Shown here: in pieces, positions 47,361 to 48,779 of the stretch | Layout: each line of letters opens with the position of its first letter | How positions within the stretch are numbered: the first letter of the stretch is position 1 | Sequence record: PQ666540 | DNA length: 64,000 nucleotides | Source of the DNA: Shigella phage sb2 | Reading direction: 5' to 3' (one strand) | Program-made: the position numbers and the translations under genes | Notes under the pieces: generated by a model | Told to the model about the DNA's origin: nothing | The model's database searches: none | The model's input: the letters and a program-made list of their open reading frames with translations, nothing else

Positions 47361-48779
47361 TTATGGATAGGTATAGATTATACCAGTTTCTAAAGCAGTT
47401 TTATGAATGATGTATCCATTACGCGATTCTTGAACATCGACTTCTGGATAGTCTTTTATCATCTTCTGAAGAGTGTAGCGGTGCAAGTAATACTTACTAT
47501 CTGGGTCGTCAGTTTTCCAATCTTTACCTTCTTCGGTCATTTTTTGGATTTCATCCATAACCCACCAACCGCACCAGATATAAGCTGAAGTACGATGTGG
47601 AAGAGGATGAACATAAGGCAATTCACCTTCTGGTTCCGGAGCAACTTTATCAGTTACCTGAACTTGACCAGTCGCTTTAACTGTTTTACTATCATAGTCG
47701 GTTTCTGTAACGACAGCAGTAACTTCAATAGTTTTACTTCCAACAGATGAGGTGTCAACGGTGTATACGTTAGTTGACCCTTCTACAGGAGAAGAATCTT
47801 TCTTCCATGAATAAGTAATTTGTGCTGCTCCAGGCGCGCCAGTAACATTAGCAGTAAATGTAGCCGAAGCATCTTGCTGAACGTTAATAGAAGGAGGAGT
47901 CAATGCAATCTGTGGATTCATTGTCTTCTTATTAACCGTCAATGTTACTTCATTGGAAGTAACTTCCTTTTCATTGTAATTTTCAGCCGTTACTTGGGCT
48001 ACACATTTAATTCTTTTTACTCCACTTGTAGTTGGAGTATAGTTAAATGTAGAGTTAGTTTCTCCATCGACCAGAGAATCATCTACATACCATTTATATG
48101 TAGCAGTTGCGCCATCGGGTTGAGAATCTAAGGCAGCGGTAAATTCAATTGGAGTTCCAATTACTCCAACTGAAGGACTATTAGGAGTTACAGCCAAGGT
48201 AGTCGTCTGCGTCTTTTTATTAACTGTCAATGATACTTCATTAGAAGTAACGCTCAGTGCATCATAATCAGCCGCAGTTACTTGAGCTATGCACTTGATT
48301 TTTTTAACTCCGCTTGTAGTAGGAGTGTAATTGAATGTAGCAGAAGTTGCTTCGCTTACAGGAGAACCGTCAACGTGCCATTGATATGTGGCAGTTGCGC
48401 CTGATGGCTGTGAAGCTAAGGCAGCAGTAAATTCAATTGGAGTTCCGATTACTCCAGCTGGAGGACTAGCAGGAGTTACTGCTAAGGTAGTTGTTTGCGT
48501 CTTCTTATTAACTGTGATAGTTGTAGTAGTTTCTGCTGTTTCAGGATCAGTATCTGGAATTGTATTTGTTGCAACTACTTTAATAGTCTTTTGACCGGCA
48601 GGTCCTTTTAATACATAACCAAAAGTTGCTTCAGCTCCATCTTGTGGAACATTATCTACACTCCAAGCATAGGTAATAGTTCCACCTTCAGTTTCACCAC
48701 TGGGTGTAGCAGTAAACTGCTGAGTCTGATCAATAACTCCAGTAGGTGTTTTAGGAGTTATATCAACTGTAAAAGCCAT
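47361..48779 (-). CDS. hoc: Hoc highly immunogenic outer capsid protein with an extra Ig-like domain
   Basis: 472 aa; N- and C-termini match T4 Hoc; internal 96-aa Ig-like unit tandemly duplicated. Confidence 0.92.
   Translation of the reverse strand: MAFTVDITPKTPTGVIDQTQQFTATPSGETEGGTITYAWSVDNVPQDGAEATFGYVLKGPAGQKTIKVVATNTIPDTDPETAETTTTITVNKKTQTTTLAVTPASPPAGVIGTPIEFTAALASQPSGATATYQWHVDGSPVSEATSATFNYTPTTSGVKKIKCIAQVTAADYDALSVTSNEVSLTVNKKTQTTTLAVTPNSPSVGVIGTPIEFTAALDSQPDGATATYKWYVDDSLVDGETNSTFNYTPTTSGVKRIKCVAQVTAENYNEKEVTSNEVTLTVNKKTMNPQIALTPPSINVQQDASATFTANVTGAPGAAQITYSWKKDSSPVEGSTNVYTVDTSSVGSKTIEVTAVVTETDYDSKTVKATGQVQVTDKVAPEPEGELPYVHPLPHRTSAYIWCGWWVMDEIQKMTEEGKDWKTDDPDSKYYLHRYTLQKMIKDYPEVDVQESRNGYIIHKTALETGIIYTYP
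47925..48500 (-). repeat. tandem direct repeat, 2 x 288 bp, inside hoc (coding, Ig-like domain duplication)
   Basis: Units starting CTTCTTATTAAC... at about 47925 and 48213, about 85% identical. Confidence 0.8.

What the first reader, a model, noticed from the sequence alone, without database searches (positions are those of the whole stretch)
47925..48500. Hoc carries an extra Ig-like domain created by a 288-bp tandem duplication
hoc here encodes 472 aa against 376 in T4 as remembered. The excess is exactly one 96-aa unit: two adjacent units (VNKKTQTTTLAVTP...TSNEV.LT) are about 85-90% identical at protein level and lie 288 nt apart in the DNA. Hoc Ig-like domains project from the capsid and bind mucin glycans and other surfaces, so a longer display arm may change adherence. 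The duplication is recent enough to remain recombinogenic, so copy number may vary within a population.
Basis: partly seen in the sequence, partly recalled or inferred. Interest (0 to 1): 0.55.

Follow-up and report, generated by a model that had tools for sequence, protein, structure and literature searches.

The report
Four-Ig Hoc: a common T-even allele
This T4-like phage's capsid fibre protein Hoc does carry one more immunoglobulin-like domain than T4's, but the extra domain is an old module shared by roughly 40% of sequenced relatives, within a gene family carrying one to four such modules, so it is ordinary.

Summary
The excess is exactly one 96-aa, 288-nt in-frame unit (48512..48225 and 48224..47937). 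The two units are 76% identical in protein, not 85-90%, and 77% in DNA, with dS about 0.77 and dN/dS about 0.2.

The duplication is therefore old, and both copies are under purifying selection. It is not specific to this phage. The same two-unit ("A-B") architecture occurs in PP01, wV7, NBG2, ECp13 and many others, about 21 of 55 Tequatrovirus-type hits in an even sample. Relatives carry 1, 2, 3 or 4 units (376, 472, 568, 664 aa), drawn from four diverged unit types in the order A-B-C-D. Two Mosigvirus phages have shorter forms still.

Units are mosaic. KNP1's one-unit hoc equals ECp13's two-unit hoc minus exactly 288 nt, with 5 mismatches in 1131. So unit number does change by in-register recombination despite the divergence.

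Most likely function, inferred only: a Hoc fibre about 45 Å longer and more acidic.

Variable Ig-domain number in Hoc homologues is published (Fokine 2023). Verdict: real, ordinary, a new allele of a known class.

The parts
47361..48779 (-). hoc coding sequence, 472 aa plus stop: four Ig-like domains and the capsid-binding domain
   Evidence: ORF list. 94.3% nt identity to ECp13 hoc, and 100% coverage of many annotated hoc genes. phmmer E = 9e-220 to T4 Hoc 5vf3_Z.
48513..48779 (-). Ig-like domain 1 (aa 1-89)
   Evidence: Segmentation. Aligns to T4 Hoc residues 1-89. Beta strands with block-mean pLDDT 84-93.
48225..48512 (-). Repeat unit 1, type 'A' (aa 90-185): Ig/PKD-like domain, the first of two domain-2 paralogues
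   Evidence: 84-93% nt identity to the first units of ECp13, PP01, NBG2, pSs-1 and UGKSEcP1 (81% to wV7), against 77% to the unit next to it.
47937..48224 (-). Repeat unit 2, type 'B' (aa 186-281): Ig/PKD-like domain, the closer of the window's two units to T4 domain 2
   Evidence: 88-93% nt identity to the second units of ECp13, PP01, NBG2, L001 and wV7, and 84% to the single T4 unit. Best Pfam PKD stretch is aa 195-268.
48066..48074 (-). 9-nt patch CTGGTCGAT (SLVD) inside unit 2, identical to type 'D' units (pSs-1 unit 2, Sfk20 unit 4) and unlike other type B units: looks like a gene-conversion tract
   Evidence: Three-way site comparison and printed sequences.
48427..48446 (-). Longest in-register identical run between the two units (20 nt, GGAACTCCAATTGAATTTAC). 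Its partner lies at 48139..48158. ECp13's units differ here, suggesting exchange between units in this lineage.
47649..47936 (-). Ig-like domain 3 (aa 282-377), a distant relative of the repeat units that shares only the VNKKT start
   Evidence: Pfam Ig_3 / I-set stretch at aa 289-374. Aligns to T4 residues 186-281.
47364..47648 (-). C-terminal capsid-binding domain (aa 378-472), including the ESRNG loop
   Evidence: Near identity to T4 Hoc residues 282-376. Invariant columns across 32 homologues. dN 0.004-0.013 against relatives.
48786..48790 (-). Shine-Dalgarno-like AAGGA, 6 nt upstream of the hoc ATG and overlapping the inh stop codon
   Evidence: Read directly from the sequence.
47323..47350 (-). 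Intrinsic-terminator-like hairpin AAGGGGCTTCGGCCCCTT plus T-rich tail, just after the hoc stop
   Evidence: Terminator scan. NBG2 annotates a terminator at the equivalent place.

Best explanation
The window carries the two-unit ('A-B') allele of hoc. Hoc is the non-essential fibre that decorates the centre of each gp23 hexamer on T-even capsids.

In Tequatrovirus, T4 'domain 2' is one module of an array of 96-aa Ig/PKD-like units. There are four old, diverged unit types. They occur in the fixed order A-B-C-D (Sfk20, slur03) or as subsets: A-C-D, A-B, A-D, and single A, single B or a T4-type mosaic.

This phage did not duplicate anything recently. It inherited an allele in which two long-diverged paralogous domains, both under purifying selection, sit in tandem. 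It may also have acquired that allele by recombination with a co-infecting relative.

Unit number changes by in-register homologous or short-homology recombination between units, giving unequal crossover, deletion and short conversion tracts. This explains the mosaic units and the different unit numbers among otherwise near-identical genomes.

The structural consequence is inferred, not shown. The fibre would have one more beta-sandwich bead, adding roughly 45 Å to the ~180 Å T4 fibre. It would carry about 5 more negative charges at pH 7. It would present one more variable surface for weak adhesion (mucin glycans, bacterial surfaces) and for antibody recognition.
For: - Length classes: 376, 472 and 568-570 aa among 120 homologues, plus 664 aa in Sfk20, slur03/08/14 and FJ1.
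- Unit typing by the DNA identity matrix: same-type units in different phages are mostly 84-100% identical, while units within one gene are 74-80% identical. Protein means are 88% and 76-77%.
- Divergence: dS between unit types is 0.48-0.97, against 0.13-0.40 within types and 0.09-0.45 for D1, D3 and the C-terminal domain between phages. dN/dS is 0.07-0.28.
- Frequency: in an even sample of 60 of 678 megablast hits, 30 had one unit, 21 two, 1 three and 1 four.
- Recombination: KNP1 hoc equals ECp13 hoc minus 288 nt, with 5 mismatches in 1131, and the crossover lies in a 7-nt identical block. Mosaic patterns appear in the T4, LYE-01 and L002 units. The window itself has a D-type patch and a shared 20-nt run.
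- Discordance with genome relatedness: the nearest genomes over 20 kb (KNP1, pSs-1 and Sfk20, 97.1-97.5%) carry 1, 2 and 4 units, and pSs-1 hoc is only 87% identical.
- Fold: four confident Ig-like domains, Foldseek hits to multi-Ig proteins, and Pfam PKD/Ig_2/Ig_3/I-set.
- Charge: pI 4.70 and -19 for the window protein, against pI 4.74 and -14 for T4.
- Literature: T4 Hoc is a ~180 Å fibre, and homologues have 1 to 10 Ig-like domains (PMC10385173).
Against: - No experiment here shows that the longer protein assembles on the capsid or changes adherence.
- The direction of most copy-number changes (array building or array decay) is not resolved, apart from ECp13 to KNP1.
- KNP1 is an UNVERIFIED GenBank record, so an assembly error there cannot be formally excluded.
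- The A/B/C/D typing rests on 17 genes at DNA level. A motif classification of 120 proteins left many units ambiguous, as expected if mosaicism is pervasive.
- dS estimates on 96 codons are noisy, and conversion between units would make them underestimate age.
Confidence: 0.85

Rival explanations
1. One reading: a recent 288-bp tandem duplication arose in this phage lineage, created a novel four-Ig Hoc, and remains unstable because the copies are nearly identical.
For: The two units are adjacent, in frame, exactly 288 nt apart and clearly homologous.
Against: The copies are only 77% identical in DNA, with dS 0.77 and a longest shared run of 20 nt. Each unit has closer counterparts (mostly 84-93%) in other phages than its neighbour. 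The same architecture occurs in a large share of sequenced relatives.
Confidence: 0.03
2. The repeat is an assembly artefact, either a mis-joined or an expanded repeat.
For: Tandem repeats are a classic source of assembly error. Some public records in this region are flagged UNVERIFIED.
Against: There are 65 differences between the copies, no indels and an intact reading frame. Both units show a purifying-selection signature (dN/dS 0.2). Many independent genomes and metagenomic contigs have the identical architecture.
Confidence: 0.01
3. The multi-unit array is ancestral. T4's three-Ig Hoc and other one-unit forms are repeated deletion derivatives, so the window shows a partly decayed array rather than a gain.
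For: One-unit genes carry different unit types: A in LYE-01 and L004, B in KNP1 and L002, and an A-head/B-middle/A-or-C-like-tail mosaic in T4. This is what independent deletions from A-B(-C-D) arrays would leave. ECp13 to KNP1 is a demonstrable deletion. Unit types keep the same order in all arrays seen.
Against: Array growth by unequal crossover between two-unit alleles would also give ordered arrays. No outgroup polarity was established. More distant Hoc proteins in the IMG/VR loci range from 179 to 755 aa and could not be aligned unit by unit.
Confidence: 0.45
4. The unit number is an adaptive, tunable trait, acting on fibre reach, mucus or bacterial-surface adherence, or antibody evasion, rather than neutral length drift.
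For: Every unit is kept in frame and under purifying selection. Ig domains D1 and D3 are less conserved than the flanks and the C-terminal domain. Hoc is reported to bind mucin glycans and E. coli surfaces and to be highly immunogenic (PMC10385173, PMC9271167).
Against: No association of unit number with host or habitat was tested. Hoc is dispensable in the laboratory. All length classes come from similar sewage and faecal E. coli or Shigella sources.
Confidence: 0.3

Closest known systems
Bacteriophage T4 Hoc (376 aa; PDB 5VF3 chain Z, 8T1X, 8T9R)
   Same: Same gene position (inh-hoc-24.3-24.2-rnlB). [quoted passage not shown] The protein is acidic, pI about 4.7.
   Different: T4 has one domain-2 unit and the window has two. 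T4's single unit is itself a mosaic: 84% nt identity to the window's unit 2 and 80% to unit 1.
472-aa Hoc of PP01, wV7, NBG2, ECp13, pSs-1 and many other Tequatrovirus phages
   Same: Identical five-domain architecture and length. ECp13 hoc is 94.3% identical in DNA over the full length.
   Different: Allelic differences only. The window has a PIEF patch in both units and a D-type SLVD patch in unit 2. pSs-1 has A-D rather than A-B. The exact window protein is absent from the 15-billion-protein collection.
568-aa (UGKSEcP1, ESh34, YUEEL01) and 664-aa (Sfk20, slur03, FJ1) Hoc
   Same: Same D1, D3 and C-terminal framework, and the same 96-aa unit family.
   Different: Three (A-C-D) or four (A-B-C-D) units instead of two.
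Hoc homologues with other numbers of Ig-like domains (Fokine et al. 2023, PMC10385173: Serratia phage Muldoon with 10 Ig-like domains; PG7 with one)
   Same: The principle is the same: a conserved capsid anchor carrying a variable-length string of Ig-like domains.
   Different: Those are distant homologues in other genera. Here the variation lies within one genus, involves one particular module, and has traceable recombination junctions.
Bacterial surface proteins with variable numbers of tandem Ig-like repeats (e.g. group B streptococcal alpha C/Rib, staphylococcal SasG/Aap); comparison from general knowledge only
   Same: In-frame whole-domain repeats whose number differs between strains through recombination, changing projection length and antigenicity.
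   Different: Those repeats are usually near-identical and change at high frequency. The Hoc units are 74-80% identical, so changes should be much rarer. There is no homology beyond the Ig-like fold, and none was tested.

Membership tests
Hoc (T4-type highly immunogenic outer capsid protein) | [quoted passage not shown] | tested here: met
   Residue-by-residue alignment to 5vf3_Z. The region is invariant across 32 homologues.
Hoc (T4-type highly immunogenic outer capsid protein) | N-terminal string of Ig-like beta-sandwich domains | tested here: met
   Pfam PKD, Ig_2, Ig_3 and I-set hits. AlphaFold2 model with four all-beta domains over aa 1-377, mostly at pLDDT above 90. Foldseek top hits are multi-Ig chains at E down to 2e-14.
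Hoc (T4-type highly immunogenic outer capsid protein) | Conserved genomic position between inh and 24.3/24.2/rnlB in T-even genomes | tested here: met
   Window ORFs compared with annotated T4, PP01 and wV7 loci.
Hoc (T4-type highly immunogenic outer capsid protein) | One copy bound at the centre of each gp23* hexamer on the mature capsid | not testable with these tools
   Needs virion proteomics or cryo-EM. Inferred from near identity of the anchor domain.
Hoc (T4-type highly immunogenic outer capsid protein) | Binding to mucin glycans or bacterial surfaces | not testable with these tools
   Reported for T4 and RB49 Hoc (PMC10385173, PMC9271167). Not assessed for the four-Ig form.
Recent lineage-specific tandem duplication | Copies nearly identical, especially at synonymous sites | tested here: not met
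   77% nt identity, third positions 62.5% identical, dS 0.77.
Recent lineage-specific tandem duplication | Absent from close relatives, with the two copies each other's closest relatives | tested here: not met
   Each unit is mostly 84-93% identical to the same-position units of other phages, against 77% to its neighbour. The architecture is widespread.
Copy-number-variable tandem domain array | Different unit numbers among closely related genomes | tested here: met
   1, 2, 3 and 4 units. KNP1, pSs-1 and Sfk20 are all 97.1-97.5% identical to the window over 20 kb and carry 1, 2 and 4 units.
Copy-number-variable tandem domain array | Recombinant junctions that document gain or loss of whole units in register | tested here: met
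   KNP1 equals ECp13 minus 288 nt, with 5 mismatches in 1131 and a junction at unit nt 44-50. Caveat: KNP1 is an UNVERIFIED record.
Copy-number-variable tandem domain array | Length variants within a single phage population | not testable with these tools
   Needs plaque PCR or long-read sequencing of a lysate of this phage.

The most novel reading that the evidence does not exclude
The domain-2 array of T-even Hoc may be a natural cassette system. Four diverged Ig-like modules would be shuffled, deleted and re-expanded by recombination between co-infecting phages. Selection (mucus or bacterial-surface adherence, pH-dependent aggregation, escape from anti-Hoc antibodies) would then tune both fibre length (3 to 6 Ig-like domains in Tequatrovirus; 1 or 2 in two Mosigvirus phages) and surface chemistry. 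On this reading, the two-unit form in this window is one adaptive setting and not neutral drift.
Probability: 0.3. Interest if true: 0.55.

Novelty: new member of a known kind. Interest (0 to 1): 0.28.

Why it matters
For this window it matters little. The four-Ig Hoc is a common allele already present in many deposited and RefSeq-annotated genomes.

The wider pattern it belongs to is of moderate interest.
- Hoc is the main display platform for T4 vaccines and vectors.
- Hoc is also the proposed mucus-adherence factor in the bacteriophage-adherence-to-mucus model.
- Nature supplies a graded, closely related series of fibres with 1 to 6 Ig-like domains on the same capsid anchor.
- That series could be used directly to test how fibre length and domain identity affect mucin binding, aggregation and immunogenicity.
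- It also suggests that longer display arms are tolerated.

I found no paper describing this one-to-four-unit array explicitly. I could search only open-access texts.

Tried and rejected
- Motif-based typing of units in 120 homologous proteins was too crude. Many units were ambiguous, and the window's own unit 2 was mis-typed as D because of its 9-nt D-like patch. I relied on DNA identity matrices and site-by-site three-way comparisons instead.
- Seven literature searches found no explicit description of the Tequatrovirus domain-2 array. An eighth attempt failed on a term that was too short.
- The two most relevant older papers (Sathaliyawala 2010, PMC2909354; Fokine 2011, PMC3147960) are not held, so prior description there cannot be excluded.
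- PMC10580926 and PMC13153029 mention Hoc but were irrelevant.
- Foldseek against the PDB returned generic multi-Ig proteins with low TM-scores, because a flexible bead string does not superpose globally. RB49 Hoc (3SHS) was not among the top 50. I did not pursue per-domain searches.
- The T4 late-promoter consensus TATAAATA was not found on the minus strand directly upstream of hoc. The nearest is at 51538. The promoter was not resolved.
- The IMG/VR scan returned only 20 loci, mostly distant Hoc proteins, and only four were useful for unit typing.
- An exact-sequence look-up of the window protein found nothing.

Full report
**What is in the sequence**

The minus-strand ORF at 47361..48779 encodes a 472-aa protein. 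It lies between the inh homologue (48789..49469) and the 24.3, 24.2 and rnlB homologues. This is the T4 position of hoc, as shown by comparison with annotated T4, PP01 and wV7 loci.

Tandem Repeats Finder reports a single array at 47923..48515: period 288, 2.1 copies, 78% matches, no indels, score 736. The ungapped repeat finder gives 47923-48210 and 48211-48498 at 77%.

In codon register the two units are aa 90-185 (48512..48225) and aa 186-281 (48224..47937). A third 96-aa segment (aa 282-377) shares little beyond the VNKKT start.

T4 Hoc is 376 aa (PDB 5vf3_Z; T4 locus). phmmer aligns the query in two blocks, 1-137 and 205-472, to T4 residues 1-137 and 109-376. The excess is therefore exactly one unit.

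The stated 85-90% protein identity is not. The units share 73 of 96 residues (76%) and 223 of 288 bases (77%), and only 60 of 96 third codon positions.

**What the units are**

Pfam gives PKD, Ig_2, Ig_3, I-set and PKD_4 matches over the repeated region and domain 3. An AlphaFold2 model built on 32 homologues shows four consecutive all-beta domains over residues 1-377, mostly at pLDDT above 90. Domain limits fall at the unit boundaries. The C-terminal anchor is of low confidence, as expected without the capsid. Foldseek returns multi-Ig chains. The duplication unit is thus one complete Ig-like domain with its linker, equivalent to T4 Hoc domain 2.

**Age of the duplication**

By Nei-Gojobori, the window's two units give dN 0.156 and dS 0.773. 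I extracted units from 16 public hoc genes plus the window. These fall into four types by DNA identity:
- Type A: every first unit.
- Type B: the window's second unit, and those of ECp13, PP01, NBG2, wV7 and L001, plus Sfk20 unit 2.
- Type C: the middle unit of UGKSEcP1 and ESh34, plus Sfk20 unit 3.
- Type D: pSs-1 unit 2 and the last unit of UGKSEcP1, ESh34 and Sfk20.

Mean dS between types is 0.48-0.97. Within types it is 0.13-0.40. For D1, D3 and the anchor domain between phages it is 0.09-0.45. dN/dS is 0.07-0.28 throughout.

Across 120 database homologues, first units average 88% protein identity to each other and 76-77% to second units. The units therefore diverged before the sampled Tequatrovirus hoc alleles did, and all of them are under purifying selection. 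The "recent duplication" reading is refuted.

**How common it is**

The window is a Tequatrovirus, 97.1-97.5% identical over 20 kb to KNP1, pSs-1, KNP5 and Sfk20. Its hoc is most like that of ECp13 (94.3%) and only 87% like that of pSs-1.

I took an even sample of 60 of the 678 phage records that match hoc. The match spans 1131 nt in 30 records (1117 nt in T2) and about 1419 nt in 21. One record has three units, one has four, two are shorter, and five are distant.

The protein database shows classes of 376, 472 and 568-570 aa. tblastn found about 15 further records with 568 aa. It also found 664-aa genes in Sfk20, slur03, slur08, slur14 and FJ1, and nothing longer.

Two Mosigvirus phages with a T4-type hoc have shorter proteins. 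AV113 has 283 aa (D1, one A-type unit, anchor). WFK has 164 aa (D1, anchor).

The architectures seen are A-B (window), A-D, A-C-D, A-B-C-D, and single units of type A, type B or mosaic.

**Evidence for recombination between units**

The single unit of KNP1 follows ECp13 unit 1 for its first 44 bases and ECp13 unit 2 thereafter. I deleted exactly 288 nt from ECp13 hoc at that point. The result reproduces KNP1 hoc with 5 mismatches in 1131 bases. D1 is 100% identical between the two phages, and D3 plus the anchor 99.3%. The switch lies in a 7-nt block identical in both units.

This is a recent in-register deletion from two units to one. The caveat is that KNP1 is an UNVERIFIED record.

The single units of T4, LYE-01 and L002 are mosaics of A-like and B-like (or C-like) tracts. 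In the window itself, unit 2 carries a 9-nt tract (48074..48066) identical to D-type units. Both units also share a 20-nt run (48446..48427 and 48158..48139) where ECp13's units differ. This suggests short conversion events.

The stated reason, a young and highly similar repeat, is wrong.

**Likely function (inferred)**

The anchor domain is nearly identical to T4's, so the protein should bind hexamer centres as T4 Hoc does. T4 Hoc is described as a roughly 180 Å linear fibre of four domains (PMC10385173), so one more domain should add about 45 Å.

The protein stays acidic. Its pI is 4.70 with net charge about -19, against -14 for T4, -25 for the 568-aa form and -29 for the 664-aa form. In the published model of pH-dependent clustering this would increase repulsion.

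Effects on mucin binding (PMC9271167) or on antigenicity are plausible but untested.

**Comparison with what is known**

Fokine et al. 2023 state that Hoc homologues keep a conserved anchor with strings of 1 to 10 Ig-like domains. They also note that closely related T4-family phages vary greatly in these domains. Many GenBank and RefSeq records already annotate 472-aa Hoc proteins.

I found no paper in the searchable library that describes the ordered one-to-four-unit array or its recombination junctions. Two key older papers could not be read.

The exact window protein is not in the 15-billion-sequence collection. The window thus holds a new allele of a known class.

**Verdict**

The feature is real and not an artefact, but it is ordinary for this group of phages. 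It is partly wrong: the event is neither recent nor lineage-specific, and the identity was overstated.

The wider array polymorphism is a modestly interesting lead for Hoc structure-function work.

Noticed in passing
window 40000-60000 versus GenBank MG010123.1: A record named 'Staphylococcus phage SAJK-IND' (32 kb, host S. aureus) is 96.5% identical to this T4-like coliphage region over all 20 kb. It looks like a mislabelled or contaminant record.
   Followed up: no
window 47361-48779 versus flanks: hoc is much more divergent than its surroundings. The window is 97.3% identical to pSs-1 over 20 kb but only 87% in hoc. D1 and D3 identities to relatives (84-96%) are generally below those of the anchor domain and flanks (94-97%). 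This indicates allele exchange or faster evolution of the Ig-like domains.
   Followed up: partly
L033 (AV113, 501-1352) and L034 (WFK, 701-1195): Two Mosigvirus phages carry T4-type hoc genes shortened in whole-domain steps. AV113 has 283 aa (D1, one A-type unit, anchor; no D3). WFK has 164 aa (D1 joined directly to the anchor).
   Followed up: partly
public records FriedrichMiescher (MZ501066), NHEP10 (PQ511148), Ec_YwIITB1 (PQ356294), T2 (AP018813): hoc is annotated as two or more CDS ('Hoc part 1 / part 2', 'x2') in these phages. This suggests frameshifts or pseudogenisation of the non-essential gene, or sequencing errors in the repeat.
   Followed up: no
protein database hits P0017, P0020, P0007: Hoc proteins appear under bacterial organism names (Shigella sonnei 'endonuclease', Escherichia coli 'PKD domain-containing protein') on contigs of 70-166 kb. 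These are phage genomes deposited within bacterial assemblies, with misleading names.
   Followed up: no
window 47323-47350 (-) and 48786-48791 (-): A strong GC-rich hairpin followed by a T-rich tail sits right after the hoc stop. The hoc ribosome-binding site overlaps the inh stop codon. No TATAAATA late-promoter consensus lies on the minus strand between hoc and 51538, so hoc may be co-transcribed with inh or use a variant promoter.
   Followed up: partly
L005, L006, L013 (IMG/VR loci): More distant Hoc homologues (35-50% identity) also come in length classes of about 280, 375 and 472 aa. One ORF, in L013, reads as 755 aa. Whole-domain length variation may therefore recur independently in other Tevenvirinae lineages.
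   Followed up: no
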